This document shows, in pieces, positions 4,176-20,583 of a DNA stretch of 25,343 nt; position 1 is the first letter of the stretch, and each line of letters begins with the position of its first letter. Below the pieces are notes generated by a model that was given only the letters and a program-made list of their open reading frames with translations, was not told the DNA's origin and searched no databases. Made by a program: the position numbers and the translations under genes. The stretch spans positions 1-25,343 of the IMG/VR virus record IMGVR_UViG_3300014613_000100; one strand, written 5' to 3'. Origin of the DNA: a virus (Duplodnaviria; Caudoviricetes).

Positions 4176-4973
4176 TTACATACTACTGATTTCCAACATT
4201 TCCAATTCACTTTGTAAACTCATTTCATCATCAAAATTTAATTCATCTACCTCATTTTTTTCTTCAATTGTAATAGGATTAACAATATGATTACCACCTA
4301 CCGTTCGTATATTTCCAGGGTAATTATTACTAACCCATTCGTTATTATCAAATTTCTTAATAGAATATAAAGGTGTAGTATAAATTTGTTTCTTTATATT
4401 ATCCTTTATTACCTTATCAAATTTATCTTTTTCTAAAATAACACCCATTTTTAATTTAGAAATGGCTTTTATAAACTTTAATCCTCCGCAAGGAGTTTTC
4501 CACCTAACATGCCCCTTAATATCGTCCTTAGATACACACATTGATATACCATGATTTTGATTAATCCATTCATCATCTGTTACTGAAAAAGTCGACCCCA
4601 TATTATGATGAGAATGTATTACACCAATTACAGATAATTCATTATATTCAGGACATTCAACATTATTCACACTAGTAGATGTTACCTTTTGTGAAGGGAT
4701 CCAAATATTAGTAACCGTATATGTCTCTTTATCTCCTATTAAATACCCTAACCACTCTATATTACCCATAACCTCCATAAGTCTATCAATCTTTAATTTA
4801 ACTATAGGTGAAAACCAAACAATTATTTCAGAAGGAGCTTTACCACACTCAGTCATAGTTTCAATTTTAGCCTCCCACGACTTTTTTACAAAAGGAACAA
4901 CATTTTTAATAACAGTGTCCATAACATTATCCTTTACCTTTCCTTTATTTTTCCATTTTCTTCTTCTACTCAT
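4176..4973 (-). CDS. JAB/MPN (JAMM) metallopeptidase, prokaryotic deubiquitinase-like
   Basis: EWLGYL...IPSQKVT...GVIHSHHNMGSTFSVTDD = E...HxH...S..D JAMM motif. Confidence 0.85.
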   Translation of the reverse strand: MSRRRKWKNKGKVKDNVMDTVIKNVVPFVKKSWEAKIETMTECGKAPSEIIVWFSPIVKLKIDRLMEVMGNIEWLGYLIGDKETYTVTNIWIPSQKVTSTSVNNVECPEYNELSVIGVIHSHHNMGSTFSVTDDEWINQNHGISMCVSKDDIKGHVRWKTPCGGLKFIKAISKLKMGVILEKDKFDKVIKDNIKKQIYTTPLYSIKKFDNNEWVSNNYPGNIRTVGGNHIVNPITIEEKNEVDELNFDDEMSLQSELEMLEISSM

Positions 4974-5020
4974 ATTATCTTCCTTTTATCAATACAGTTT
5001 TTATCTCCCCTTTCTATTTA

Positions 5021-5614
5021 TTATATATATAACCTTTCTATATTGCAGCCCATTTCCTTATCTGTATATTTCATTATTTTAGCAACTACCATAGAAGCCA
5101 CTATCACTGCCGGGGATACCCATGATGGCGTAATAGTATATCCATCCGGAGCTTTGCCCCATGTAGCCACAGAATCACTTATGGATACCCGAGTTCCATC
5201 ATAACCAGCCTTAACATATTTTATTCCATTATTCCTTGCTATTTTTTGATTTTTCATTTGTGTTTCTAATATATCCGTACAATCTAATAACCAATCACTA
5301 TCATTTATAAACAATATGTGGTTTTCTGAAAATTCATAAGGAAATGTCTCTATATCACAATCAGGCCTTAGATTTTCAACTATAAGTTTCAAAATATCGG
5401 CTTTATTTTTACCTATAAACTTCAAATAAGGTAAATCAATTCTATTAAAATTATGCTTTTCCATAATGTCATGATCAAAAGCATAAATTTTCTCAATACC
5501 AGACATTGCTAAAAATTTACCTACCCAATATCCAATTCCACCACAACCTATAATTGTAACCGTTTGTTTTGTATTTAAATTTAAAGTTTCCTGTCTCATG
5601 TATAAATCATTCAT
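5021..5614 (-). CDS. ThiF/E1-like adenylating enzyme (minimal)
   Basis: YMRQ, IIGCGGIG, DHDIMEKHNFNR, IGKNKA, LLDCTD motifs; start moved to MNDLY just after the upstream stop. Confidence 0.9.
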   Translation of the reverse strand: MNDLYMRQETLNLNTKQTVTIIGCGGIGYWVGKFLAMSGIEKIYAFDHDIMEKHNFNRIDLPYLKFIGKNKADILKLIVENLRPDCDIETFPYEFSENHILFINDSDWLLDCTDILETQMKNQKIARNNGIKYVKAGYDGTRVSISDSVATWGKAPDGYTITPSWVSPAVIVASMVVAKIMKYTDKEMGCNIERLYI

Positions 5615-5615
5615 T

Positions 5616-6476
5616 TTATGATCCCCACACATTCATATCGTTTTGTCTTACATTTTCTGTTATACCAACACGTGAAGAATCCATTGATAATTTTTGATTA
5701 ATTTTTTTATCAACCAAATGTTTTATTAAAGTAGATTTTCTTGGAAGACCTCTTGGATTTTCCATTGCAATAGATTTTATATTTATATTCTCCAACACTG
5801 CTTCAGCTTTCCTTGCAATGGCTATTATATCACTAGGTGTACTCCATGTATTAGGGTATGTCCATTTACCCCAACAATCAGGATTATGTTGATGGTAATG
5901 TTGAAAATACTCTAATCCTATTATTTTATGTGTAGATACTTTTACCACTCTATATCCTTCAGTATCAATTCTAAAAATAATATTTGTCAACATCTTCTTT
6001 GACATTTTAGGATTAATATTTTTAAAATCTACAGTTTTTGGCCAATAAATACCTTGGACAAACCATGTATATGAACCATCTCCATGTTGACCTCTAACAA
6101 CAGATAAACCTTGAATGGCATGTTCTATATTAACCTCTGGCATTGAAATGATTGAAGCTATTTTTCTATCATAATCGGCTTTCTTTTTTTCATATGATAA
6201 CTTAAATGTTGATATTAATTGTGAAGTTTCTATACTTCTTTTATTAACTTCATCTCGAATAAATTTCATTTTAGAAACCAATTTCTCTCTAAATTCTTCT
6301 CTTATTTCGTCCTCTATTGATGATATTTCTTCTTGGACCAGATCCATTTTTATTATCTTATTACCAATCCTCATTGATATTCCATTTGTTTTTATAGAGT
6401 CAACAATTTTTTCATCCACCAATCCTAATATTTCTTCTTTTTTCTTATCCATATTTTTTAATATATCTTCCATCAT
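5616..6476 (-). CDS. Coiled-coil plus putative prokaryotic E2-like domain
   Basis: Charged helical N-half; C-half FQHYH....DCWG resembles E2 HPN/HPH...C.G; lies between Ubl and E1. Confidence 0.55.
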   Translation of the reverse strand: MMEDILKNMDKKKEEILGLVDEKIVDSIKTNGISMRIGNKIIKMDLVQEEISSIEDEIREEFREKLVSKMKFIRDEVNKRSIETSQLISTFKLSYEKKKADYDRKIASIISMPEVNIEHAIQGLSVVRGQHGDGSYTWFVQGIYWPKTVDFKNINPKMSKKMLTNIIFRIDTEGYRVVKVSTHKIIGLEYFQHYHQHNPDCWGKWTYPNTWSTPSDIIAIARKAEAVLENINIKSIAMENPRGLPRKSTLIKHLVDKKINQKLSMDSSRVGITENVRQNDMNVWGS

Positions 6477-9832: not shown

Positions 9833-9915
9833 TGGAGCCATCACGGGGATTTGAACCCACGATTTCCACCATCCACCATACCAAGGTGGCGTGCTACCAA
9901 TTACACTATGACGGC
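9833..9915 (-). tRNA. tRNA-Thr(GGT) with 7-nt duplication in the variable region
   Basis: Acceptor GCCGTCA/TGATGGC, CCACC-TTGGTAT-GGTGG, GTTCAAATC, encoded CCA. Confidence 0.88.
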
Positions 9916-10403
9916 TTTTTTAGGTAGGATTCAAGAACTTCTAAAGAAACGGGAAAATAATTCCATTGGTCAACACCTACATTGACCACATTTTTTATTC
10001 TCTTGAATAAAGTATGAACATGGCCACAAAACCATGTTTTTTCTGGGGCTACTATAGCACATGCCGGATCATGTCTTAAAATATATCCATCAACTTCCAG
10101 AGCGGTATGGACACTTATGAAACCAACTTCTTCATAATCAAATGGTTTAAATCTATCATGATTTCCAAGTATAAGGTATTTCCTACAATTAATTTTCTTA
10201 ACAAGTGATTCTATATAAGGCTTCTTTTCAGGACCAAAAACGGTTAAATCGCCGATAATAAATAATTCATCTTCCGGTTTTAAAACCTTATTAAAATTTT
10301 TAATAAGGGTTGTATCCATCTTTGCTGTATTCTTAAATGGACGCTTACAAAGTCTAATTATATCGTTTTCACCAAAATGAGTATCCGCGGTAAAATATCG
10401 CAT
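9906..10403 (-). CDS. Calcineurin-like metallophosphoesterase
   Basis: DTHFG, GD, GNHD, RHDP, GHVH motifs. Confidence 0.9.
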   Translation of the reverse strand: MRYFTADTHFGENDIIRLCKRPFKNTAKMDTTLIKNFNKVLKPEDELFIIGDLTVFGPEKKPYIESLVKKINCRKYLILGNHDRFKPFDYEEVGFISVHTALEVDGYILRHDPACAIVAPEKTWFCGHVHTLFKRIKNVVNVGVDQWNYFPVSLEVLESYLKKPS

Positions 10404-10418
10404 TATAAATTCCTTTCT

Positions 10419-10492
10419 TGGAGCCCTTTAGCGGAATTGAACCGCCGTCTTCGGTTTACGGGACCGACATTCTACCAATTAAAATAAAGGGC
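10419..10492 (-). tRNA. tRNA-Thr(CGT), atypical
   Basis: GCCCTTT/AAAGGGC, TCGGT-CCCGTAA-ACCGA, TTCAATT, CCA; about 2 nt short before the D arm, C33. Confidence 0.7.
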
Positions 10493-10495
10493 AAT

Positions 10496-10750
10496 TTAAA
10501 ATACTATTTCATATAAATGTTCTATATAAGTTTTATTGTCATCTAATGCTGTTCCTATATAAACAGAATTATCAGGAATTACACCGCCTGTCATAACAGA
10601 TTGAAATTTTCTATATTCTTTTAATCCTTTTACAACATTCACACTACACCATATCATTAACTTTCCATATTGAAAATCTACTTTCAATATTTCTGTTCCT
10701 ATAGGTAAATCCATAACATTTTTAACTTCATATTTATAAACCTTTCTCAC
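10496..10750 (-). CDS. Hypothetical phage protein
   Basis: 84 aa, GTG start with RBS GGAGG; YIGT...HLYE pattern. Confidence 0.7.
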   Translation of the reverse strand: MRKVYKYEVKNVMDLPIGTEILKVDFQYGKLMIWCSVNVVKGLKEYRKFQSVMTGGVIPDNSVYIGTALDDNKTYIEHLYEIVF

Positions 10751-10770
10751 AATTTACCTCCTAAAATTAT

Positions 10771-11013
10771 TTAAGTATATTTCCACCTTACAATTAAATT
10801 TAACATAAATACCGGCAATACAATTCCAAATGCAAAAAAAGGTGTTATATGTAATAATACCATTCCATACATTTCAGTTTTACCTGGGTTCATAACTTCG
10901 CTAATAGAAAAGGCAAATATCCAGGGTATTATATTATAAGTTGTTGTCCTTATAAGCCCTTCATAAGTATATCTAAAAATAAAACACCTCCTGTTATTCA
11001 AGCCTCCTACCAA
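10771..11013 (-). CDS. Hypothetical membrane protein (start uncertain)
   Basis: Hydrophobic C-terminal segments. Confidence 0.4.
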   Translation of the reverse strand: MVGGLNNRRCFIFRYTYEGLIRTTTYNIIPWIFAFSISEVMNPGKTEMYGMVLLHITPFFAFGIVLPVFMLNLIVRWKYT

Positions 11014-11407
11014 GTAATTCTTCTACTTGGCCTTGATTATTTTTCCATGTTTTAGCTGTTTCTTCATGTGATGCATTTACACCATGAAGAAGTTCCTTAC
11101 ATTCAAATGGTTTAACTGGATGTATCTCGCATAATTCATATTCAGTAAAAAATACACATCTACCTATAGGATTACCAGGATATTCTTTACCTGGTTCCTT
11201 ATCCATAATTGCTGGAGCCAATAAATATATATTTTTAGGATAATTAACCCACCAATCAACCATAAGTTTAGTGTGAAATAATTCTTTCAATGATATATTT
11301 AAATATTCAGCAACCTTTTCAGCTTCACCAGGTATAAACCAACCAGGTTTATAGAAACATGCATTTCTACACCTACGACACTTACATGATTCCTTAGTCC
11401 CTTTCAT
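10994..11407 (-). CDS. YkgJ-family cysteine-cluster (Zn/Fe-S) protein
   Basis: CxCxxCxxxC...CVFF....CEIHPVKPFECK. Confidence 0.75.
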   Translation of the reverse strand: MKGTKESCKCRRCRNACFYKPGWFIPGEAEKVAEYLNISLKELFHTKLMVDWWVNYPKNIYLLAPAIMDKEPGKEYPGNPIGRCVFFTEYELCEIHPVKPFECKELLHGVNASHEETAKTWKNNQGQVEELLGRRLE

Positions 11408-11515
11408 TATATTTTATCCTTTCTTATATAATCCTTTGTAAAACGTTCCAATGTGATGTCTTCCACTTTTCTGTTTGTTTTGTTCCTTTTAAAGCCATAA
11501 TCTATAAAATTTCTC

Positions 11516-12214
11516 CTAATACGGATAATTATATATTTCCATCTTGTTATTATATGCCCAAACCCACATGTCCCTACGGAGTTTTGCCCTATATACTCTA
11601 CCTTCAAACATTCTTTTCAAATTATAAAAAACAATACCTTCGGCCATAACCTTATTGCCCATTTTACCAGAGAAAAGAGAAAATAAATAATCTTTAAACC
11701 ATAAACTCCAATTCTCAAATGTTCTATCATGTTGGTGAAATGATTTATATCTAAGGTGTTTAATAGCCTTTTCAAATGGATACCAAATATTATAATTTAA
11801 ACCATAAATATTTTGTTGAATTTTATTACCTACCACTTCACCGGCTTGTTCTCCGTCTCTTTGAATATAACTCTTTGATATAGCTCTAAAAACTCCTTCT
11901 ATTATAGCAAGTTTACCCTTGGCTTGAAAAAGGTTCAATGGATCAATTTGATTGGTCCTATTGTATAATGAAACCAATTTTCCGTTTTCTGTAAGAAGTT
12001 TTACATTGGTTCCATCAAGTTTTTCTACCGCGAATGTATTAGGATCATCAATTACCCATTCATAACCAGGTGTAACCTCAGGTGTAACCAAATATACTTC
12101 TGGAGATCTTAATTGAAGTTCTTTACCATATTTTATCCAATCATCTCTATTAATTTTATAGGTTTTACGAATAAATGGACAAAGCATTTTTGGATAATTT
12201 GATAATTCTTTCAT
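11516..12214 (-). CDS. ATP-dependent RNA ligase-like nucleotidyltransferase
   Basis: Motif I EKLDGTN, GE, EGIVF, AKLR; no OB domain. Confidence 0.8.
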   Translation of the reverse strand: MKELSNYPKMLCPFIRKTYKINRDDWIKYGKELQLRSPEVYLVTPEVTPGYEWVIDDPNTFAVEKLDGTNVKLLTENGKLVSLYNRTNQIDPLNLFQAKGKLAIIEGVFRAISKSYIQRDGEQAGEVVGNKIQQNIYGLNYNIWYPFEKAIKHLRYKSFHQHDRTFENWSLWFKDYLFSLFSGKMGNKVMAEGIVFYNLKRMFEGRVYRAKLRRDMWVWAYNNKMEIYNYPY

Positions 12215-12426
12215 TTATCCTCCTTTATCCTCCTTTATATATACAACAATATGGGCACATATCATATATTTTTAAACAATAAAATGCTCCACAATTCTCA
12301 CATTTACACATTATCTAACTCCCTCTGCATATCTAAATATTCACCTAAAATTTCACCTGTATTTTTTAATAACAGAAATAGCTAAAGTCCCATCTAAATC
12401 TATATCAGCTCACGATAACATATTTT

Positions 12427-12741
12427 TTATCCTTTCATATATTGTTTTTTCTTTTTCCTTTTTTTCCATGATTTTTTTATAAATAAATCTCCACGAGGAT
12501 ATTCATCCCATGTATCAGGAAGATTCTTTGGTTTTCTTTTACACCGAATTCCACACTGACCTATATGAGCATAATACATTTTTTTTTCTTGTGTGGTTGA
12601 TAACCTTCTATTCCAATTACCTCCTCTAAAACGAAAAATAAAAGGTACAGGATCCATACGAAAACGAAAAAATTGACAAAATTTTTTAATACCAGGAATA
12701 TAAATCCATCTTCCACGATATAAAATTTCACCATATTCCAT
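12427..12741 (-). CDS. Hypothetical basic protein
   Basis: 104 aa, RBS AGGAGG; LPDTWDEYPR...KSWK. Confidence 0.65.
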   Translation of the reverse strand: MEYGEILYRGRWIYIPGIKKFCQFFRFRMDPVPFIFRFRGGNWNRRLSTTQEKKMYYAHIGQCGIRCKRKPKNLPDTWDEYPRGDLFIKKSWKKRKKKKQYMKG

Positions 12742-12922
12742 TTTTTAACCTCCTAAATTTTTAATAAACTTAAAAGGTATCAAACATCCAATAAATCATA
12801 TTATTTCCTTTCTAAAATTAATGGTAAACGGAGGTGACCTGTTCGAGTTTGTGATCTCCACTTTAAGCCTTAGCTGTTGCTGGTACCTCTACACAATTTT
12901 TATATCGTTTACCAAAAAATAA

Positions 12923-12997
12923 TGGAGGTCCTATAGGGAGTCAAACCCTAAACAAATCGTGTTGCGGACGATAGCCTTGTCACTTGGATATAGGACC
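12923..12997 (-). tRNA. tRNA-Cys(GCA), divergent
   Basis: GGTCCTA/TAGGACC, ATCGT-CCGCAAC-ACGAT, U73, CCA; D-loop lacks GG, T-loop TTTGACT. Confidence 0.75.
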
Positions 12998-13149
12998 AAA
13001 ACCGGGAAAGACTTATTCACTAATGTATATCTAGTGGCCACCAGATAAGGTATTAGGGATCCCTCAGCAAAGCCTTCCAACTATTCCTTTATTGGGATCA
13101 TTTTGAGGAGTTGTATAAGAACAACTCAACCCCTTTTATATACTAAAAT

Positions 13150-13241
13150 TGGTACTCCCTCAGGGAGTCGAACCCCGATCTCACACCAATCTAGTGTTTA
13201 CGCCGTATAAAGACGCTGTTTTACCATTAAACTAAGGGAGC
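13150..13241 (-). tRNA. tRNA-Ile(TAT) with long variable arm
   Basis: GCTCCCT/AGGGAGT, GCGTC-TTTATAC-GGCGT, V-arm CACT-AGATT-GGTG, TTCGACT, CCA. Confidence 0.85.
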
Positions 13242-13246
13242 AAAAA

Positions 13247-13935
13247 TTATGGCACAGTGGACTAAAGTACCTGTGCCTTCCAGAATACCGTTAAGGATAT
13301 ATTATCCAAGGCTTTCAGCCCATTTCACAAATATTCCAGAAAAACTGGACAATAATATAGGATTTTTATGATATAAGATTTTCCGGAATTATTATATTAC
13401 TCACAGAAGTCTAATAACCCGTCGGTTGCCCACGGAAACTCCTCATACTCCATTGCCAACTTAATAAAATTGTTGTGGCATTTTTTATTACATCATGAGT
13501 GTACTACCCATTTATAACTGGAAGGACTCGCCACGGGAACCTTCATTACCCATATAATAATGGATCATGGGGCCGACATATTTCAAATATGCTAAAAATA
13601 ACTAAATAGTTATCACGGTTATCCCATAATCCATTATAATTTAGGGAATGAAAAGAGAGATTTGTACTCTCAACGGAGAGACAAGTAACTTGTAATTAAG
13701 TGTTCTCCGAACCTGAACCCGTATGTCTACGATTTGGTGTCATAACATTATAGACATTATGGAGACATTATCGGCCTGATATATATCAGTTCTACCCACA
13801 ATACTTTACATAATATCCTTTCTGTTATGAACGGTCACCTGGGCACAATCCCTGTTCAGTTAAGTTATCGGCCTTATCAACCGACTTTTCCTTACATTTT
13901 CAATTTACTCCCCGCCAGGAGTAAATTTTCCCCAA
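13247..13935 (-). ncRNA. Candidate large structured ncRNA (~690 nt)
   Basis: No ORF >=60 aa, dense hairpins, a long-range helix, dedicated promoter, ends just before a tRNA. Confidence 0.6.
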
Positions 13936-13951
13936 AATCTTTAATATCCTT

Positions 13952-13980
13952 ATTATAACAAAATTTATATAAAAAGTAAA
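13952..13980 (-). promoter_or_regulatory. Promoter TTTACT-N17-TATAAT
   Basis: Motif with extended TG immediately upstream of the ncRNA candidate. Confidence 0.75.
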
Positions 13981-13997
13981 TATTTTATTTTTAAAAG

Positions 13998-14070
13998 AGC
14001 AGATACCCGGATTCGGACCGGAACTTTAGCGTCGGCAACGCCACGTGCTACCATTAAACACCATACCTGC
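13998..14070 (-). tRNA. tRNA-Gly(GCC)
   Basis: GCAGGTA/TATCTGC, TGGCG-TTGCCGA-CGCTA, U73; CCA not encoded. Confidence 0.88.
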
Positions 14071-14283
14071 TTATTCATTGAACTCAAAACCTAATTCTTC
14101 TAAACATTCTACCACAAGGGAATTCCCAATTAGATCACTATCATATTCACAATCCCAATCTTGACTCCATAACGCTTCTATTAAAGTTTTTATAATCTCT
14201 TTTTTATCACCATCATTTATATCCATATATATAATTGGATCAACCACACTATCAAATATATATGTACCTGAACACCATCCCAT
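14071..14283 (-). CDS. Hypothetical phage protein
   Basis: MGWCSGT...QDWDCEYDS; RBS AGGAGG. Confidence 0.7.
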   Translation of the reverse strand: MGWCSGTYIFDSVVDPIIYMDINDGDKKEIIKTLIEALWSQDWDCEYDSDLIGNSLVVECLEELGFEFNE

Positions 14284-14302
14284 TTATATAATCCTCCTTT
14301 AA

Positions 14303-14374
14303 TGATCTTTAGGAAACTCGAACTCCCATCTACGGCTTGAGAGGCTATTATCCTTTCCCGTTAGACGAAAAACC
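14303..14374 (-). tRNA. tRNA-Glu(CTC), degenerate / possible pseudogene
   Basis: CTCTCAA loop, TTCGAGT T-loop; weak acceptor and anticodon stems, no CCA. Confidence 0.55.
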
Positions 14375-14389
14375 TTAAATTAACCAATT

Positions 14390-14472
14390 TGGTAGGGGAA
14401 CCCGGACTCGAACCAGGACGCCCGAAGGCCATGGGCCTAAACCATGTGAGTAGACCGTTCCTCTATTCCCCC
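14390..14472 (-). tRNA. tRNA-Leu(TAG)
   Basis: GGGGGAA/TTCCCCT, CATGG-TTTAGGC-CCATG, V-arm GCC-TTCG-GGC, CCA. Confidence 0.9.
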
Positions 14473-14551
14473 ATATTATCCATATTTTAATGTAATTTTC
14501 TATAATAATTAGAACATAAAATATTACATTTTTATTATAATCCTTTCTTTT

Positions 14552-14643
14552 TGGAAGCGGTGGAAGGATTTGAACCTCCGAGCCCAATTAAAGGCATCCG
14601 GCTTATGAAACCGGCGAGATAGGCCAGACTTCTCAACACCGCA
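14552..14643 (-). tRNA. tRNA-Met(CAT), initiator-like, long variable arm
   Basis: U1xU72 mismatch, A11-U24, CCGGT-TTCATAA-GCCGG, ~18-nt variable region, CCA. Confidence 0.8.
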
Positions 14644-14655
14644 ATATTTAATTTT

Positions 14656-14729
14656 TGGTAGTCCCTCACGGTACTGACCCGTGTTCTCCTGGGTGTAAAC
14701 CAGGTGTTATACATTTCTACTAAGGGACT
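14656..14729 (-). tRNA. tRNA-Val(TAC), atypical T and D loops
   Basis: AGTCCCT/AGGGACT, CCTGG-TTTACAC-CCAGG, T-loop GTCAGTA, CCA. Confidence 0.8.
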
Positions 14730-14737
14730 ATAATTAC

Positions 14738-14899
14738 TTATTTTATCATAAGATGGCCAAAATGTAAAGTTCCTTTTTGGCAATTTGGACACCAAAACCA
14801 TTCAGTATGATTGATAAATTCTGATACAATATACTTTTCAACACTATGTCCGCACATTCCATAACAATCATACCTAATTTTTTTCAATAATTTTTTCAT
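14738..14899 (-). CDS. Small Zn-finger-like hypothetical protein
   Basis: MKKLLKK start after tRNA-Gly; CGH...CPNC. Confidence 0.5.
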   Translation of the reverse strand: MKKLLKKIRYDCYGMCGHSVEKYIVSEFINHTEWFWCPNCQKGTLHFGHLMIK

Positions 14900-14909
14900 T
14901 TTATTTCCT

Positions 14910-14984
14910 TGGAGCGGGTACATGGATTTAAACCATGACCTAGAGATTGGAAATCTCCTATGCTATCATTAACACCATACCCGC
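14910..14984 (-). tRNA. tRNA-Gly(TCC)
   Basis: GCGGGTA/TACCCGC, GGAGA-TTTCCAA-TCTCT, CCA. Confidence 0.88.
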
Positions 14985-14987
14985 TTA

Positions 14988-15239
14988 TTAGATATTCAAA
15001 ATAAAAATATTCTTACGTTTTGCTTTTTTACCTACCATTAATTCTGTAAATCCTTTAGGAATTTCTTTATCCCATCCATTTTTCTTTGCCTGTGATGTAG
15101 ATGGAAAAATTCCAGCATTTTTTATTATATGTGCCATAATCCAATTATCTTTTATTTCTATGAAAAAATCAGTAGGCCCAACAGGACCAAAAAATAAATC
15201 TTTATCTTTATCCGTTACATTCTTATTGATAAAATTCAT
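14988..15239 (-). CDS. Stand-alone S4-like RNA-binding domain protein
   Basis: AHIIKNAGIFPSTSQAKKNG...VGKK resembles the TyrRS C-terminal S4 motif. Confidence 0.5.
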   Translation of the reverse strand: MNFINKNVTDKDKDLFFGPVGPTDFFIEIKDNWIMAHIIKNAGIFPSTSQAKKNGWDKEIPKGFTELMVGKKAKRKNIFILNI

Positions 15240-15267
15240 AACATCACCTTTCTTTCATGAAAAATAA

Positions 15268-15810
15268 CTATTTTAACTTGTTATTTATGGTTGCCCATGA
15301 TACTCCTAACTTAATTGCTATTTGATTCTTGGACATTATTTTTCTCATTTCAAGTAAATCAATATTATCCCAATCTGCTTTCCATTGACTTTTTATATAA
15401 CATTCTCTAGAACAATTTTTCTGTGTTGTAGGTTTTTCTCTACCACATACACAACATAAGTCTTTCTTAACATCTATTTTAAATGCCACACGGTAATCTG
15501 TAAAATCATCATTAAACATCAATGCATTATCAGGAACATATATATATCCATATTCAATCAATCTATGACAATTAGCGCATACCATAACACATTTTTTTAA
15601 CTCATTGACTATACGTTTCCATGCTATATTATTTGCTCTGATTGCTCCTAATCCAAACTCTTTTTCAGTTGGGTCCAAATGATGGAAGTCAAATACTTCA
15701 TCCTGAAATTCGTTTCTACAACAACAACATTTCCTCCCAAATGCATCCACCATACGTTCTTTTGTTCTTTTTCTCCATGCCTTTACTGCCTCACTATTTT
15801 TACTCATCAT
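15268..15810 (-). CDS. HNH endonuclease
   Basis: C..C...FDFHHLDP...KCVMVCANCHR, C-terminal Zn finger and HTH; RBS GAGGAGG; TATAAATA upstream at 15842-15849. Confidence 0.85.
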   Translation of the reverse strand: MMSKNSEAVKAWRKRTKERMVDAFGRKCCCCRNEFQDEVFDFHHLDPTEKEFGLGAIRANNIAWKRIVNELKKCVMVCANCHRLIEYGYIYVPDNALMFNDDFTDYRVAFKIDVKKDLCCVCGREKPTTQKNCSRECYIKSQWKADWDNIDLLEMRKIMSKNQIAIKLGVSWATINNKLK

Positions 15811-15881
15811 ACCCTCCTCATAAAATAACATTCTCTGTTATTATTTATACAAGTACGATGATTTTTCCTTAAAATTTTGAG

Positions 15882-15970
15882 CTGCCGGGGCTGGGATCGA
15901 ACCAGCGCACCGTTTTCACGGATTACACTTGCTTAACAGGCAAGCCGCTTGCCAACTAGCGTACCCGGCA
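15882..15970 (-). tRNA. tRNA-Asn(GTT) with long variable arm
   Basis: TGCCGGG/CCCGGCA, G73, CTTGC-CTGTTAA-GCAAG, V-arm CCGT-GAAA-ACGG; no CCA. Confidence 0.85.
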
Positions 15971-15995
15971 AAAATTTTTTTATCTAACTTTCCTT

Positions 15996-16024
15996 ATTAT
16001 AACAAAATTTGATTAAAATGTAAA
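15996..16024 (-). promoter_or_regulatory. Promoter TTTACA-N17-TATAAT
   Basis: Exact motif upstream of tRNA-Asn. Confidence 0.7.
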
Positions 16025-16246
16025 TTATACTGTTTTCTTCAAACCTACTATTACGGAGAATATATCTGGTGTAGAACCATCATATTCTTCAATATCTGTA
16101 AACTCCCAAAAATTTACAACTTCTCCTAAATTTTCGGCAATAGCTTTAATTAAACTACCATCAACATTATGTCCTTCATATACCTTATTATTGTATATAT
16201 AAAGAACACTCCAATCACCATCAGGCACTGAAACAACATTATACAT
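16025..16246 (-). CDS. Hypothetical protein
   Basis: 73 aa, RBS AGGAG. Confidence 0.65.
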   Translation of the reverse strand: MYNVVSVPDGDWSVLYIYNNKVYEGHNVDGSLIKAIAENLGEVVNFWEFTDIEEYDGSTPDIFSVIVGLKKTV

Positions 16247-16252
16247 TTTATT

Positions 16253-16555
16253 TTACTCCTTATCTAATTCTTGTACATATTTACAATAAGGACATTTTAT
16301 CCATAAGACATCTTCATATCCATCGGCATAAGCAAAACATACATTTTCAATATCAGGTTTAAAATCATTATTACAATTAGAACAAAGTATTGTAAAGGTT
16401 TTAATTTCTTCTATAATGTTATCAATTTTTCCTATACTTACTGAAAATGGAGCACAATCAATATGTCCTAACATATTTTCTTCCACCATATTATATATTT
16501 CTTCTTTTGTATATTCATCATCTAAATCAATTATAATTTCTACAATGTATTTCAT
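16253..16555 (-). CDS. Hypothetical protein with Zn ribbon
   Basis: CSNC...CPYC; RBS AAGGA. Confidence 0.65.
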   Translation of the reverse strand: MKYIVEIIIDLDDEYTKEEIYNMVEENMLGHIDCAPFSVSIGKIDNIIEEIKTFTILCSNCNNDFKPDIENVCFAYADGYEDVLWIKCPYCKYVQELDKE

Positions 16556-16581
16556 CTTTCTTCCTTTCTATAATTTAAAAG

Positions 16582-16943
16582 TGGAGACGGCCGGAATCGA
16601 ACCGGCGTCCGCAAATTATCAACTTCAGTTGGATTACAATCATTATGGGTTATAATTTCTTTATATACCATGTTAAACCCACATTACATTAATATATGCA
16701 CCTGTTTAAATTGTCGGAAAATAAAGAATAACAGGAATTCAAAATCTCTTACCTTTCTAATCGGTACCTTTATAAATCCGAAAGGAAAACTTACAAGGCA
16801 GATCATTTAAGCCGCTATGGCTAGATCGTAACTATAATCGTCTGCAATTATATTTAAGTTGGTCATGTTTATAACGGGTTACATGCCATCCCGTAATTGC
16901 AACCTACATCTCATTATCCACGTCGAATACCATTTACGTCCCC
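16582..16943 (-). ncRNA. ssrA: tmRNA
   Basis: 5' GGGGACGTAAATGGTATTCGAC, 3' T-arm plus CGTCTCC-A with G3.U70; tag frame 16845-16807 encodes ADDYSYDLAIAA*. Confidence 0.95.
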
Positions 16944-17164
16944 TAATTTATACAAACCGCATTTATTTCTTTTCCTTCTAAATCCTCATCTTGGTACCAT
17001 CCACCATCATCATCATCATCAAGATGTCCTCTGGAAGGAAACCATAACACGTCTTCATAAGAATTTCCTTCATCATCACCTGCATAAACCGTCTTCATAT
17101 CAGAACATTCAGGATAATCTTTTAAAAATTCATTCAAAGATTTCACATATTCACCAAATTTCAT
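16943..17164 (-). CDS. Hypothetical acidic protein
   Basis: 73 aa, DDEGNSY...NAVCIN; RBS GGAGG. Confidence 0.7.
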   Translation of the reverse strand: MKFGEYVKSLNEFLKDYPECSDMKTVYAGDDEGNSYEDVLWFPSRGHLDDDDDGGWYQDEDLEGKEINAVCIN

Positions 17165-17188
17165 TTAATTTCCTCCATATTAATTTTC

Positions 17189-17398
17189 CTAATAATCTTT
17201 ACCTTCTATCGGAGGTTCATTATGACAAATACATCCATAATAATTACAATCAGGCATAAGCCAAGCAAAATCTCCACCACAAGTACAATTAGTAAGGACT
17301 ATTAAACAACCTTTATCAATTGCTTCCTTAAAAGATTTTGTTCGTTTATTTATTATTTTAACCTCTTTATCAATTACTTCTTTAAAATATTCATTCAT
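17189..17398 (-). CDS. Hypothetical Cys-containing protein
   Basis: CTCGG...GCICHN; RBS AAGGA. Confidence 0.6.
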   Translation of the reverse strand: MNEYFKEVIDKEVKIINKRTKSFKEAIDKGCLIVLTNCTCGGDFAWLMPDCNYYGCICHNEPPIEGKDY

Positions 17399-17412
17399 AA
17401 TTATTCCTTTCT

Positions 17413-17487
17413 TGGAGCCTCCTAACGGAATCGAACCGATTTCTCAAACTTACAAGGCTAGTATTCTACCAATTAAACTAAGGAGGC
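17413..17487 (-). tRNA. tRNA-Thr(TGT)
   Basis: GCCTCCT/AGGAGGC, CTTGTAA loop (one stem mismatch), TTCGATT, CCA. Confidence 0.85.
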
Positions 17488-17635
17488 TCAAATCACGTTA
17501 TTATAATTAAATTATTATTTTTTTACCTTTCTTTTCTTTTCCTTGTTAAAATTTTTAGGAAGAAGTTTTTCGGGCATTATTGGACCAATAAATTTAGGTA
17601 GTTTTATCACTTTTTCCATATTTTATCCTTTCTTT

Positions 17636-17709
17636 TGGAAGCCCTATTAGGATTCGAACCTAAACAATGAGAGTCAAGGTCTCATATGCTACCATTACAT
17701 CATAGAGCT
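17636..17709 (-). tRNA. tRNA-Gln(TTG)
   Basis: AGCTCTA/TAGGGCT, TGAGA-CCTTGAC-TCTCA, TTCGAAT, CCA. Confidence 0.88.
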
Positions 17710-17738
17710 ATTATATCAAATTTTATAGTAAATGTAAA
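17710..17738 (-). promoter_or_regulatory. Promoter-like TTTACA-N17-TATAAT abutting tRNA-Gln
   Basis: Exact motif, but the start site would fall inside the tRNA. Confidence 0.45.
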
Positions 17739-17744
17739 CTTTTT

Positions 17745-17794
17745 TAGTAGAAATAATGGGAGTCGAACCCACACTATATAGATATTACATCACT
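17745..17794 (-). pseudogene. tRNA remnant / minihelix (acceptor plus T-arm only)
   Basis: GTGGG-TTCGACT-CCCAT then TATTTCT-A-CTA; imperfect 5' partner AGTGATG only 15 nt upstream. Confidence 0.45.
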
Positions 17795-17842
17795 GAAATC
17801 GTGTGGCGCTTATAAACCCACGGAGGATTATGGCCACTAATT

Positions 17843-17920
17843 TGGTAGGCGATCCCGGAATCGAACCGGGAAACATTGGATTTTAAGTCCAACAGGTATA
17901 CCAATTCCCATCAATCACCC
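17843..17920 (-). tRNA. tRNA-Leu(TAA) with short variable loop
   Basis: GGGTGAT/ATCGCCT, TTGGA-CTTAAAA-TCCAA, 5-nt variable loop, CCA. Confidence 0.88.
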
Positions 17921-18023
17921 ATGAAAAATGTATTTATTACATTTAATTTTCTTAATTCATTATCTATCCTTTTTCCTATTTGAAATAACCACTTAACTTA
18001 TATCAATTTCATAACATAATTGT

Positions 18024-18097
18024 TGGTAGTCGGAGAAGGAATTGAACCTTCATTAAACGCTCATCAGGCGCTTTTCTTGCCGTTAGAAGACCCGACT
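18024..18097 (-). tRNA. tRNA-Ile(GAT)
   Basis: AGTCGGG/TCCGACT, AGCGC-CTGATGA-GCGTT, CCA. Confidence 0.88.
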
Positions 18098-18134
18098 ATA
18101 AAATTTAGCCCTTTATTCAACTTAGAAGAAAAAT

Positions 18135-18289
18135 TGGTAATGAGAAGAGGAATCGAACCTCTTATTAGTATTTAGCCACCGATTGGGGTCAGTTACACCA
18201 CCTCATAAGTTACTAACTTATTATTTGGCACCATACATCATATAGTAACCCGGTTCTTACTCGGAAAACTATAGCAACCAGCACCCATC
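18135..18289 (-). ncRNA. 155-nt tRNA-like RNA (acceptor, T-arm, CCA; no D or anticodon arm)
   Basis: 5' GATGGG pairs with CTCATT-A-CCA; AGAGG-TTCGATT-CCTCT; internal hairpins. Confidence 0.6.
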
Positions 18290-18335
18290 AAAATTTGGTA
18301 CGACCTCTCCGAATAGAATTCTTCCATCAAAAACT

Positions 18336-18411
18336 TGGTGCGACCTCTCCGAGTTGAACGGAGTTCTTCGGGGTTTCAAGCCGATGTAATTACCCAATCT
18401 ACGAAAGTCGC
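18336..18411 (-). tRNA. tRNA-Phe(GAA)
   Basis: GCGACTT/AGGTCGC, TTGAAAC loop, CTCCG-TTCAACT-CGGAG, CCA. Confidence 0.85.
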
Positions 18412-18497
18412 ATATGTTTCAAAAAATCATCTTTTAATAAACAGGTTTTTTTACCTCTTTTCTTACCCCATTTAGATAGATTATTTTTATTTAAGAG

Positions 18498-18578
18498 CGG
18501 AAGAGACAGGAATCGAACCCGCTACGCTATTATACGCCAGAGCTTTCAAAACTCTTTATCCCCATGGACGACTCTTCC
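18498..18578 (-). tRNA. tRNA-Ser(TGA), very short D loop
   Basis: GGAAGAG/CTCTTCC, G73, AGAGT-TTTGAAA-GCTCT, long variable region; no CCA. Confidence 0.8.
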
Positions 18579-18614
18579 ATATTAACATAAACTATCATAA
18601 TTGTAAACTAAAAT

Positions 18615-18690
18615 TGGCACTCCTGACAGGATTCGGACCTGCATTATCCCTGGTTCGTAACCAGGCGCTGTTCCGTTCAGCTACAGGAGT
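18615..18690 (-). tRNA. tRNA-Arg(ACG)
   Basis: ACTCCTG/CAGGAGT, CCTGG-TTACGAA-CCAGG, CCA. Confidence 0.9.
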
Positions 18691-18696
18691 ATTTAT

Positions 18697-18772
18697 TGGT
18701 GGACCAGATTCGGATTCGAACCGAAACTTACTGGATGCAAGCCAGTCGTGCTCCCATTAACACTATCAGCCC
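18697..18772 (-). tRNA. tRNA-Ala(TGC), G3.U70, bulged acceptor
   Basis: GGGCTGA/TCTGGTCC, ACTGG-CTTGCAT-CCAGT, CCA. Confidence 0.85.
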
Positions 18773-18811
18773 ATAAATATTTATAAATCAAACTTCATTA
18801 TTTCTAAAAAG

Positions 18812-18894
18812 AGCCCTCAACAGGAATCGAACCTGCATGCGTCCGTTACGTTATTATTAATGCGCGGCTTAGAAGGCCGTAACGCTATGAGGGC
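18812..18894 (-). tRNA. tRNA-Arg(TCT)-like, no canonical D-arm
   Basis: GCCCTCA/TGAGGGC, CGGC-CTTCTAA-GCCG, GCAGG-TTCGATT-CCTGT; about 7 nt between acceptor and anticodon arm. Confidence 0.75.
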
Positions 18895-19049
18895 AAAATT
18901 ATACTCCGGGAATTCCATATATATCTATAGGTATCTTTCATATATACAGGAGTGATGCAAACCCGAAGAAAACGCTTATTATCACCCAGTTTGGATGTCT
19001 AATGAGATAATCCCTTATAGGATATCCGAAAAGACATATTTTTAAATTT

Positions 19050-19125
19050 TGGTGGGAGCGGAGAGAATCGAACTCATCTGTGCCCAGGTTAAAAGCCTGG
19101 TGCCATACCAGTTGGCTACACTCCC
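19050..19125 (-). tRNA. tRNA-Lys(TTT)
   Basis: GGGAGTG/CGCTCCC, CCAGG-CTTTTAA-CCTGG, CCA. Confidence 0.9.
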
Positions 19126-19159
19126 ATTACTTTGCCACTAAGTTATACACTTATAATAT

Positions 19160-19233
19160 TGGTGGGTTTATGAAGAATCGAACTCCAGTTTACCGGGTAA
19201 GAACCGGCCACTTTACCACTAAGTTATAAACCC
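19160..19233 (-). tRNA. tRNA-Lys(CTT)
   Basis: GGGTTTA/TAAACCC, GCCGG-TTCTTAC-CCGGT, CCA. Confidence 0.9.
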
Positions 19234-19241
19234 ATGAAAGT

Positions 19242-19318
19242 TGGTGGGCCGGAAGGGAATCGAACCCTTAACTTCCACCTTGCAAGGGTGGCACTCTCCC
19301 TAATTGAGTTACCGGGCC
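19242..19318 (-). tRNA. tRNA with TGC (Ala) anticodon lacking G3.U70
   Basis: GGCCCGG/CCGGCCC (C3xC70), CCACC-CTTGCAA-GGTGG, CCA. Confidence 0.85.
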
Positions 19319-19325
19319 AAAAGTT

Positions 19326-19399
19326 TGGTAATCCCAAGGGGAATTGGACCCCTGTCTTCAGGTTGAAAGCCTGATATTCTACCACTAAACTATGGGACT
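19326..19399 (-). tRNA. tRNA-Glu(TTC)
   Basis: AGTCCCA/TGGGATT, TCAGG-CTTTCAA-CCTGA, CCA. Confidence 0.88.
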
Positions 19400-19407
19400 A
19401 AAATTTT

Positions 19408-19482
19408 TGGTCGCGGAGCTCGGATTCGAACCGAGATCAGAGCGATCCAAACGCCCCATGCTACCGTTAGCACCACTCCACG
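19408..19482 (-). tRNA. tRNA-Pro(TGG)
   Basis: CGTGGAG/CTCCGCG, GGGCG-TTTGGAT-CGCTC, CCA. Confidence 0.88.
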
Positions 19483-19602
19483 AAAGTTATTATAAATGAC
19501 GCCCTACACCATACCAAAAGGATAGATTCAGCAAGTTTTGTCTGGTATCATTTGTCTTGCTATCCAATGGGCACATGTCCCATTTACATCATTTATATAT
19601 TT

Positions 19603-19677
19603 TGGCGGTCCCAACGGGATTTGGACCCGCTCTAAAAGATCGACAATCTTTCGTGCTACCGTTAACACTATGGAACC
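19603..19677 (-). tRNA. tRNA-Asp(GTC)
   Basis: GGTTCCA/TGGGACC, G73, AAAGA-TTGTCGA-TCTTT, CCA. Confidence 0.9.
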
Positions 19678-19696
19678 CAAATTACATAATATCACA

Positions 19697-20053
19697 TTAT
19701 TTACAGTCTTCAAACCAATCACAATCCCAACAAGGATCGTCATCCGGATCCTCGTCATATATTTCATTTTGAACAGGATCCATTACCCATAACCAAGAAA
19801 CATCTTTACTAAAAAATCCTTGCCAATAATGTGTCATCATTTGCATTATCTTTTCAGAATCATCTTCGGTTATAAGAATATCCGATGTTTCTTCATATCC
19901 CACACGACATATTCCTGTATTACCTGAAGAAACATCTATATCTGCTATTTCAAAAGCAGGAACCATTTGATTTTCTCCTCTATAAAACAATTTTCCAATC
20001 AATTTTTGATTTATAACATCTGGTTTTCCCCATTTTATATCATATCTATACAT
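19697..20053 (-). CDS. Hypothetical protein, acidic C-terminus with CxxC
   Basis: 118 aa, RBS AAGGA, promoter upstream. Confidence 0.7.
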   Translation of the reverse strand: MYRYDIKWGKPDVINQKLIGKLFYRGENQMVPAFEIADIDVSSGNTGICRVGYEETSDILITEDDSEKIMQMMTHYWQGFFSKDVSWLWVMDPVQNEIYDEDPDDDPCWDCDWFEDCK

Positions 20054-20081
20054 ATTTTATTTCCTTTCATTTGATAAGTTT

Positions 20082-20110
20082 ATTATAACATAAATTCAAA
20101 ATAATGTAAA
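20082..20110 (-). promoter_or_regulatory. Promoter TTTACA-N17-TATAAT
   Basis: Exact motif; about 38 bp near-identical to the 23151-23179 promoter. Confidence 0.75.
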
Positions 20111-20121
20111 TTTATTAATTT

Positions 20122-20207
20122 TGGTGCGTGGACAGGGAATCGAACCCCCAAGGCATCCACCTTACTTTAGCCAAGTGATTTACAGTCACCTGTAAGGAAA
20201 TCCACAC
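20122..20207 (-). tRNA. tRNA-Tyr(GTA)-like, no canonical D-arm
   Basis: GTGTGGA/TCCACGC, GGTGA-CTGTAAA-TCACT, TTCGATT, A73-CCA; D-arm replaced by TTTCCTTACA. Confidence 0.8.
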
Positions 20208-20212
20208 ATTAT

Positions 20213-20398
20213 TTATACTTGTATTAACATATCACCATTAGTAATTTTTACTTTATAACCTATTTTTGGTATAAATCCATAACACTTACTTATATATAAT
20301 CCAATAATTGCATTATCTTCGGTTTTAGTATAAACAATAACATCAGAATCATTGGCACCATATTCATTTGTAATTTCTATAATCTTTCCATACCTCAT
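20213..20398 (-). CDS. Hypothetical protein
   Basis: 61 aa, RBS AAGGA. Confidence 0.55.
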   Translation of the reverse strand: MRYGKIIEITNEYGANDSDVIVYTKTEDNAIIGLYISKCYGFIPKIGYKVKITNGDMLIQV

Positions 20399-20414
20399 AA
20401 TTTATTATTTCCTT

Positions 20415-20488
20415 TGGCGAGTCCTGAAGGATTTGAACCCTCATTAATCGGTCTGGAGCCGATCGTGGTACCATTACACTAAAGACCC
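20415..20488 (-). tRNA. tRNA-Trp(CCA)
   Basis: GGGTCTT/AGGACTC, ATCGG-CTCCAGA-CCGAT, G73-CCA. Confidence 0.9.
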
Positions 20489-20495
20489 ATAATTT

Positions 20496-20583
20496 TGGGG
20501 TAATGAACGGGATTTGAACCCGCACGTCCTTTACGGACACAAGGGCCACAGCCTTGCGCGGCTACCATTTCGCCATCATTACC
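20496..20583 (-). tRNA. tRNA-His(GTG) with G-1 and long variable arm
   Basis: G-1:C73, GTAATGA/TCATTAC, CAAGG-CTGTGGC-CCTTG, V-arm GTCC..GGAC. Confidence 0.88.

What the first reader, a model, noticed from the sequence alone, without database searches (positions are those of the whole stretch)
20122..20207. tRNA-Tyr(GUA) with pseudoknot-like replacement of the D-arm
Seen: acceptor-TTT-CCTTAC-A-anticodon arm-T-GGC-TAAA-GTAAGG-TGGAT-GCC-TT-T arm-ACCA. CCTTAC pairs perfectly (6 bp) with GTAAGG inside the loop of a GGC/GCC variable hairpin that also carries a GG. It is the only Tyr tRNA in an otherwise complete 20-amino-acid set, which argues for function. With the Arg(UCU) gene it suggests an alternative tRNA architecture, perhaps evading tRNA-targeting defences.
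Basis: partly seen in the sequence, partly recalled or inferred. Interest (0 to 1): 0.82.

Follow-up and report, generated by a model that had tools for sequence, protein, structure and literature searches.

The report
Phage tyrosine tRNA with permuted D-arm
This phage gene belongs to a widespread family of tyrosine tRNA genes, missed by the two standard tRNA finders tried and apparently undescribed, in which half of the D-arm has moved into the variable loop to make a pseudoknot; it is predicted to refold into the normal L shape, likely works in translation, and may escape bacterial nucleases that cut host tyrosine tRNA.

Summary
Observation confirmed and extended. The gene (20207-20122, minus strand) belongs to a family of at least 145 distinct tRNA-Tyr(GUA) sequences in phages and some bacterial chromosomes. 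The 6-bp helix and the 3-bp crossing helix both covary, and both hold in 56 held-out sequences (52/56 and 55/56). The D-arm is permuted, not lost: its 5' strand and GG loop sit inside the variable-arm loop. The moved loop keeps D-loop signatures. Its first base covaries with T-loop base 59, as in tRNA-Sec. The base after GG is A in 134/135 Arg members (the ArgRS determinant A20) against 9/120 others. The rearrangement also occurs with Arg, Ile, Cys and Val anticodons; a shorter Arg form, also in this window, is in 252 cultured-phage records. Unpermuted 8/4 tRNA-Tyr relatives exist. Charging, translation and nuclease escape are untested, and canonical Tyr genes co-occur in some genomes. Nine literature searches of an open-access library found no description. 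Verdict: a real, conserved non-circular permutation of tRNA, directly testable.

The parts
20122..20207 (-). Permuted tRNA-Tyr(GUA) gene, long form (type I), 86 nt with encoded CCA
20200..20207 (-). Acceptor stem 5' strand, 8 nt (G1); pairs with 20126-20133
   Evidence: 8:65 paired in 47/47, 89/89, 56/56 held-out
20192..20197 (-). Strand equivalent to the D-stem 3' strand, joined to the acceptor by a 2-nt linker
   Evidence: 4 of 6 pairs significant in the tree-aware test; 6/6 in 52/56 held-out
20173..20191 (-). Anticodon arm: 6-bp stem and 7-nt loop, anticodon GUA at 20181-20183
   Evidence: (sixth pair found by RNAalifold)
20170..20172 (-). Crossing (variable-arm) helix, 5' strand
   Evidence: middle pair is the top-scoring pair; 3/3 in 55/56 held-out
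20160..20165 (-). Relocated D-stem 5' strand, inside the variable-arm loop
20155..20159 (-). Relocated D-loop with GG; its first base covaries with T-loop base 59 (window 20139)
   Evidence: (E=0.017)
20152..20154 (-). Crossing helix, 3' strand
20134..20148 (-). T arm: 4-bp stem and canonical T loop
20122..20133 (-). Acceptor 3' strand (C72), discriminator A73 and CCA
18812..18894 (-). Permuted tRNA-Arg(UCU) gene, short form (type II) with a long variable region; 7/5 acceptor/T, relocated D-loop with A after GG, no encoded CCA, U73, 4-bp anticodon stem
   Evidence: missed by default ARAGORN, weak Rfam tRNA-Sec hit below threshold
9833..20582 (-). tRNA/tmRNA array of a T4-like large phage in which both genes lie

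Best explanation
The gene encodes a tRNA-Tyr whose D-stem 5' strand and GG-containing D-loop have moved from before the anticodon arm into the loop of the variable arm, forming a conserved pseudoknot that is predicted to rebuild the normal L shape, so it is likely charged with tyrosine by host TyrRS and likely used in translation during infection. Segment order changes from acceptor / D5'+D-loop / D3'+anticodon arm / T arm to acceptor / D3'+anticodon arm / D5'+D-loop / T arm, a non-circular permutation on an 8/4, tRNA-Sec-like scaffold. Shown by covariation: 8-bp acceptor, 6-bp relocated D helix around a 6-bp anticodon stem, crossing helix, and coupling of the relocated loop to T-loop base 59. 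Inferred: the 3D L shape, RNase P processing, aminoacylation (G1:C72, A73, GUA kept) and ribosome use. Most speculative (about 0.35): the fold is kept because it buries or remodels the variable arm that PtuAB nucleases of retron-Eco7 and Septu cut in host tRNA-Tyr.
For: (1) A scan that did not specify either helix gave 50 same-architecture matches among 123 viral matches, 46 distinct. On their structure-blind MAFFT alignment plus the window gene, 95.6% of cells pair against 71.9% in shuffles and at most 58.2% in slid controls. (2) A home-made tree-aware covariation test on 89 distinct sequences gave 19 pairs at E<0.05, all fitting the model; the top pair is the middle pair of the crossing helix (89/89 paired, 5 pair types). 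(3) Held-out set of 56 new sequences: 8:65 paired 56/56, helix 6/6 in 52/56 (4.7% in shuffles), crossing helix 55/56. (4) First base after the helix against T-loop base 59 is U.U or C.C in 84/117 (shuffle mean 57, max 74) and 48/56 held-out; tRNA-Sec has C16:C59 or U16:U59 (PMC7609411). (5) Base after the relocated GG is A in 134/135 Arg members and 9/120 others, mirroring canonical tRNAs in the same loci (Arg 138/146, Tyr 4/45, Ile 10/112); A20 is the main ArgRS determinant (PMC9976931). (6) G1:C72 in 47/47 though not in the first pattern; G1-C72, A73 and U35 are bacterial Tyr determinants. The one Cys member has U73. (7) Only Tyr gene found in 7 of 9 near-complete phage records. (8) Unpermuted 8/4 tRNA-Tyr with a 6-bp D stem and 4-nt loop exists in phages (L527) and in the allo-tRNA supplement (row 660). 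(9) PtuAB cuts tRNA-Tyr in the variable arm, and a phage tRNA-Tyr resists through its variable loop (PMC12673091, PMC13096335).
Against: No expression, processing, charging or translation data exist here; the RNA runs were contigs only and concern a different member. Single-sequence folding does not give the fold for the window gene or for the SCYZ1 copy. Canonical Tyr genes co-occur in 7 of 28 phage records and 5 of 5 bacterial genomes, so it is often redundant. Only 1 of 3 crossing-helix pairs is significant (second E=0.23). The T stem is weak: the outer pair is unpaired in 17/47. TyrRS also reads the long variable arm of class II tRNA-Tyr (recalled), which is remodelled here. Some 8/4 allo-tRNAs with UAU anticodons were inactive in E. 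coli (PMC5389517). 32 of 120 short-form Arg members have U73 rather than A/G73. Many sequences are close kin, so counts overstate independence. A73 and CCA were fixed by the Tyr search patterns. Neighbours of chromosomal copies show no recurrent defence gene (83 ORFs from 18 loci).
Confidence: 0.72

Rival explanations
1. The RNA folds as modelled but is a decoy or inhibitor: it binds tRNA-targeting nucleases, synthetases or EF-Tu and is not used for decoding.
For: Often redundant with a canonical Tyr gene. Some irregular tRNAs are charged but not used in translation (PMC5389517). Overexpressed tRNA-Tyr neutralises PtuAB whether or not it is cleavable (PMC12673091).
Against: It fills the Tyr slot in 7 of 9 near-complete phage records. 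Identity elements track the anticodon across Tyr, Arg, Ile and Cys members. The 12-bp acceptor/T branch is kept.
Confidence: 0.15
2. It is a D-armless tRNA like mitochondrial tRNA-Ser: the extra helices only stabilise an extended anticodon arm and no D-loop/T-loop elbow is rebuilt.
For: There is no D hairpin; the helix stacks directly on the anticodon stem.
Against: GG is kept within 0-2 nt of the helix in 55/56 held-out sequences. The 16:59-like coupling and the Arg-specific A after GG mark the moved loop as a D-loop. In the short form U8 is 66/66 and 15:48 is complementary in 64/66.
Confidence: 0.07
3. The transcript is cut and religated into the canonical order, as circularly permuted tRNA genes are.
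For: Permuted tRNA genes restored by processing are known (PMC10085705 introduction). The window encodes an RNA-ligase-like protein (weak hits).
Against: It would need three cuts and three ligations. The crossing helix covaries strongly, which fits the permuted molecule being the selected form. Chromosomal copies lie among housekeeping genes without a nearby ligase hit.
Confidence: 0.03
4. A decayed pseudo-tRNA with chance complementarity.
For: Missed by default ARAGORN and Rfam; fold not the energy minimum.
Against: 145 distinct sequences with compensatory changes in every helix.
Confidence: 0.02

Closest known systems
(8/4) allo-tRNAs and (8/4) tRNA-Ser/His (Mukai et al. 2017, PMC5389517; abstract, passages and supplement rows seen)
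   Same: 8/4 acceptor/T branch, long D stem with a short loop, 6-bp anticodon stem, long variable arm, found in phages and alphaproteobacteria; one listed GUA/A73 sequence (supplement row 660) resembles this family in its variable and T arms.
   Different: Allo-tRNAs have the D hairpin in the canonical place and no pseudoknot; 11 of the 12 GUA rows shown have G73 rather than A73; all 12 are unpermuted.
tRNA-Sec (Rfam RF01852; review PMC7609411, passages seen)
   Same: 6-bp D stem, 4-nt D loop, 16:59 contact, long variable arm; six other long-form members give weak RF01852 matches of 23-32 bits.
   Different: All below the 47-bit threshold; the window Tyr gene gives no match; sense anticodon, 12-bp branch, permuted order.
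Non-circularly permuted hammerhead ribozymes (Eckert et al. 2023, PMC10085705; abstract and passages seen)
   Same: Segment order changed non-circularly while spatial neighbours are presumably kept, creating a pseudoknot.
   Different: A ribozyme, not a tRNA; that paper's introduction lists only circular permutations for tRNA genes, restored by processing.
D-armless mitochondrial tRNA-Ser (PMC7609411 passages; PMC9427863 listing only)
   Same: No D hairpin, short connector between acceptor and anticodon arms.
   Different: Those lose the D elements; here they are kept and moved, and the T loop is canonical.
Canonical bacterial and phage class II tRNA-Tyr (e.g. T5, KVP40)
   Same: GUA, G1:C72, A73, canonical T loop, paired variable arm.
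   Different: 7/5 branch, D hairpin before the anticodon arm, no pseudoknot.
Viral tRNA-like structures with pseudoknots (PMC9976931 passages)
   Same: Pseudoknotted RNAs recognised by aminoacyl-tRNA synthetases, including TyrRS.
   Different: Those are 3' ends of RNA virus genomes and do not serve in protein synthesis; this is a free-standing gene in a tRNA array with a 5' acceptor strand of its own.

Membership tests
Canonical tRNA (RF00005 cloverleaf) | D hairpin between acceptor and anticodon arms | tested here: not met
   Only 15 nt between acceptor base 7 and the anticodon loop in 84/84 Tyr members; no Rfam or default ARAGORN call
Canonical tRNA (RF00005 cloverleaf) | 12-bp acceptor/T branch, T-loop consensus, 7-nt anticodon loop, NCCA end | tested here: met
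   loop motifs and ACCA were part of the search patterns
Canonical tRNA (RF00005 cloverleaf) | L-shaped fold with D-loop/T-loop elbow | tested here: inconclusive
   Indirect only: GG conservation and 16:59-like coupling; no RNA 3D tool
Bacterial tRNA-Tyr isoacceptor | G1:C72, A73, GUA anticodon | tested here: met
Bacterial tRNA-Tyr isoacceptor | Tyrosylation by TyrRS and decoding of UAU/UAC | not testable with these tools
   needs biochemistry
(8/4) allo-tRNA | 8-bp acceptor with 4-bp T stem | tested here: met
   8:65 paired 89/89 and 56/56; 49:65 unpaired in 95/110
(8/4) allo-tRNA | Sec-like D stem-loop in canonical position | tested here: not met
   the same elements are present but split and moved
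tRNA-Sec | RF01852 score above 47 bits; UCA anticodon; 13-bp branch | tested here: not met
D-armless mitochondrial-type tRNA | Loss of D stem and GG loop | tested here: not met
   helix and GG retained and covarying
Circularly permuted tRNA genes | 5' and 3' halves swapped and restored by processing | tested here: not met
   acceptor 5' strand is first and CCA last; maturation itself untested
Anti-defence phage tRNA | Rescues phage from a tRNA-cleaving defence | not testable with these tools
   precedent only

The most novel reading that the evidence does not exclude
A previously unrecognised class of translation-competent tRNAs whose mature molecule is non-circularly permuted (pseudoknotted 8/4 long form for Tyr, Arg, Ile, Cys; compact 7/5 short form for all Arg anticodons seen, Ile, Val), hidden in hundreds of phage genomes including cultured E. 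coli, Salmonella and Pseudomonas phages, and selected because a new chain topology keeps the shape that synthetases and ribosomes read while removing the features that defence nucleases cut.
Probability: 0.4. Interest if true: 0.95.

Novelty: new variant of a known kind. Interest (0 to 1): 0.87.

Why it matters
The cloverleaf order of arms is taken as universal outside mitochondria. A conserved natural rewiring that keeps identity elements and tertiary signatures would show that the tRNA L shape can be built from a different chain topology, and would be a natural non-circular permutation in a translation RNA. It means phage tRNA sets are under-annotated: the short Arg form carried a tRNA annotation in 1 of 40 listed records, and the Felix O1 genome paper remarks that an Arg(AGA) tRNA was expected but not found. 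It offers a direct test of why phages carry tRNAs (shape-preserving escape from tRNA nucleases) and a new scaffold for engineered or orthogonal tRNAs.

Tried and rejected
BLAST of the gene against cultured phages gave only T-arm matches. An exact-pattern viral scan found nothing. The clamp-loader query found no close phage relative. The metagenome scan returned only L522, the window's own contig, which is not independent. So conservation in close relatives of this phage is untested. T5 and KVP40 were checked as possible known cases; their Tyr (and T5's Arg) genes are canonical. One plasmid BLAST found nothing. RNA runs for a Felixounavirus short-form Arg locus were contigs only and uninformative. 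Moving the segment back in silico and scoring with ARAGORN did not discriminate: 10/20 called Tyr against 117/307 for control segments, 0/20 native; it gives no support. In the tree-aware test of 51 short-form sequences only one relocated-helix pair was significant, the 15:48 pair was not (E=5.2; 48 A-U, 3 G-C), and one further pair at E=0.033 is unexplained. The Tyr covariance model R1 found one Arg member (46 bits) but not the window's Arg gene (73 sources of 121 held). Pfam on 83 of 104 neighbour ORFs from 18 chromosomal loci showed no recurrent partner gene. Promoter hits were at chance level (10 against 8.2). I first thought the sequence just after the anticodon arm was the D-loop equivalent; family conservation places it after the helix. 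Both MAFFT alignments misregister the window's crossing-helix 3' strand by one base. Rows dropped before counts: 73 of 124 matches failing the acceptor/anticodon filter, including L072, a likely 1-nt-shorter member; L154; L595 and L615; 8 hits with other anticodons treated as misparses. Candidate models DNAVirus_1423 (Tyr) and DNAVirus_2961 (Arg) of PMC10690425 could not be compared: supplement files 1 and 2 were unreadable and file 4 had no match.

Full report
Setting. The window is a 25,343-base virus record held on its own. It encodes T4-like replication genes (clamp loaders, RNase H-like exonuclease, resolvase), a tmRNA and about 30 tRNA-like genes on the minus strand. The nearest cultured phages are about 33% identical in the clamp loader. 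The host is unknown.

Observation. The gene runs 20207 to 20122 and contains every element listed. The 6-bp helix encloses the anticodon arm and crosses the 3-bp helix, which makes a pseudoknot. One sequence alone is weak evidence: 1.6% of shuffles give a 6/6 match and the predicted minimum-energy fold differs. Default ARAGORN and Rfam do not call it.

Family. Of 123 viral matches, 50 passed a filter on acceptor pairs 1-7 and the anticodon stem at the window's spacing, giving 46 distinct sequences. A tighter pattern found 46 matches in bacterial and archaeal genome contigs, 45 true, and about 260 stretches in viral contigs (estimate). Genome hits are mostly Alphaproteobacteria, in tRNA islands or among housekeeping genes; some are probably binned phage contigs. 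A cultured phage, Pseudomonas phage SCYZ1, carries an unannotated copy next to tRNA-Pro. In all there are 145 distinct Tyr sequences including the window's (89, 56 new).

Structure. On a structure-blind alignment of 47 sequences, 95.6% of cells pair, with 270 double changes against 70 in shuffles. Features not used in selection were position 8 with 65 (47/47 paired, 17 double changes), the relocated helix (89-100% per pair) and the crossing helix (middle pair 47/47, 14 double changes). RNAalifold adds a sixth anticodon-stem pair. A home-made test that reassigns substitutions along the tree gave 19 significant pairs among 3,655, all in the model; the best is the crossing helix's middle pair. 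Its null is my own and only approximates R-scape; the acceptor 1-7 and anticodon pairs in that list were selection filters. In 56 held-out sequences 8:65 pairs in 56, the helix is 6/6 in 52 (4.7% in shuffles) and the crossing helix 3/3 in 55. The fold is therefore 8/4 acceptor/T, 6-bp helix on a 6-bp anticodon stem, and a 3-5-bp crossing helix in most members.

The moved loop is a D-loop. Three signs point the same way. First, the only significant non-Watson-Crick pair links the base after the helix to T-loop base 59 (E=0.017); it is U.U or C.C in 84/117 and 48/56 held-out, as at 16:59 of tRNA-Sec (PMC7609411, passages). Second, scans for Arg(UCU) and two scans not tied to Tyr or Arg(UCU) gave 255 distinct rearranged genes in 522 loci: long form Tyr 89, Arg 15, Ile(UAU) 15, Cys 1; short form Arg 120 (six anticodons), Ile 13, Val 1, CAU 1. 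The base after GG is A in 134/135 Arg and 9/120 others, as in canonical tRNAs of the same loci; A20 is the main ArgRS determinant (PMC9976931, passages). The window Tyr gene is one of the 8 of 89 Tyr members with A there. Third, the short form keeps U8 (66/66) and a complementary 15:48 pair (64/66; shuffle mean 50, max 58), although that pair is not significant against the tree null. The window's Arg(UCU) gene is a short form; its family register differs from the long form, and it lacks CCA and has U73.

Origin (inferred). Unpermuted 8/4 tRNA-Tyr with a 6-bp D stem and 4-nt loop exists in phages (L527) and in the allo-tRNA supplement (row 660). Its two D strands match the two strands of the relocated helix in kind. 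The simplest path is transposition of D5' plus D-loop into the variable-arm loop, after which the old variable stem becomes the crossing helix. The three new junctions (9 to 22, 45 to 10, 20/21 to 47/48) join positions that are neighbours in the tRNA core (recalled, not modelled here). Direction and number of origins were not tested, and an in-silico move-back test did not discriminate.

Function. Bacterial Tyr determinants G1:C72, A73 and U35 (PMC9976931 section 20) are kept; G1:C72 was not in the first pattern. The gene is the only Tyr found in 7 of 9 near-complete phage records, but canonical Tyr co-occurs in 7 of 28 records overall and 5 of 5 bacterial genomes; that pattern would miss Tyr genes with other loop bases. 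No RNA evidence was obtained. I put translation competence at about 0.7. PtuAB of retron-Eco7 and Septu cuts tRNA-Tyr in the variable arm, and a T5-like phage tRNA-Tyr resists through its variable loop (PMC12673091, PMC13096335, PMC11555353; passages). A pseudoknotted variable arm is a natural escape route, but nothing here tests it, and it does not explain the Arg and Ile members. Those partly match AT-rich codons: in 18 window ORFs AGA occurs 90 times and AUA 180 times in 3,781 codons, so codon supply may contribute.

Prior knowledge. Nine searches aimed at unusual or phage tRNAs and one on Arg-targeting nucleases in an open-access library found no description; subscription papers are mostly absent. 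Seen: PMC5389517 (abstract, passages, supplement rows), PMC7609411, PMC9976931, PMC11555353, PMC13096335, PMC12673091, PMC3185647, PMC12482277 and bioRxiv 10.64898/2026.09.22.753630 (passages), PMC10085705 (abstract, passages), PMC10690425 (passages, two supplement rows; files 1 and 2 unreadable, so its Tyr- and Arg-overlapping candidates may be related). Twelve loci run against Rfam gave no family beyond weak tRNA or tRNA-Sec matches. Earlier notes of this scan describe the short Arg form in Felix O1-like phages; look-ups for the Tyr form found nothing. The short Arg form matches 263 cultured-phage records, 252 over at least 80% of its length, with a tRNA annotation in 1 of the 40 rows listed.

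Verdict. The structure is well supported (about 0.93). It works like a tRNA by every sequence test available, but it fails membership of each described atypical class. I file it as a new variant of tRNA, an apparently undescribed non-circular permutation. Interest 0.87.

Noticed in passing
window 18135-18218 (-): tRNA-like element with a good T arm and CCA, a 6-nt anticodon loop and no D hairpin; may be a decayed short-form permuted gene lacking the GG.
   Followed up: partly
window about 13250-13990 (-): About 740 nt inside the tRNA array with no ORF of 50 aa or more, no tRNA and no Rfam hit; candidate large non-coding RNA.
   Followed up: no
window 4176-6476 (-): Adjacent ThiF/E1-like gene (5021-5632) and JAB-like gene (4176-4973, below Pfam cut-off) plus an unknown ORF: possible phage ubiquitin-like conjugation module.
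   Followed up: no
window about 18290-18350 (-): The 3' end of tRNA-Phe, with its CCA and trailer, is repeated just downstream as a truncated copy.
   Followed up: no
window 9833-9915, 13150-13241, 14552-14643, 15881-15970, 20496-20582 (-): Thr(GGU), Ile(UAU), Met(CAU), Asn and His genes have long variable regions unusual for these amino acids, while Leu(UAA) at 17843-17920 has a short one.
   Followed up: no
window 16579-16943 and 15268-15831 (-): Phage tmRNA with tag ADDYSYDLAIAA, and an HNH endonuclease gene inside the array.
   Followed up: no
L152:1219-1307 (+): Long-form permuted tRNA with Cys anticodon and U73, the only Cys member found.
   Followed up: partly
L524, L526, L528, L529, L531 (around 1980-2076): Tyr(GUA) genes with a Sec-like D hairpin and an irregular acceptor or linker, not called as Tyr by ARAGORN; another atypical phage Tyr group.
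   Followed up: no
L120:478-562 (-), L045:3174-3262 (-): 8/4 Ser-type tRNAs lie next to the permuted Tyr gene in two high-GC phages.
   Followed up: partly
L428, L436, L468, L472, L474, L494 (around 170-403): About 100-nt tRNA-like genes with an apparent UAU anticodon, a long D region and a conserved long variable arm.
   Followed up: no
G020 (record of L086): One phage record holds two permuted Tyr genes and one canonical Tyr gene.
   Followed up: no
L124:3039-3506, L127:6168-6710: An HNH gene lies beside the permuted Tyr gene in two alphaproteobacterial loci.
   Followed up: no
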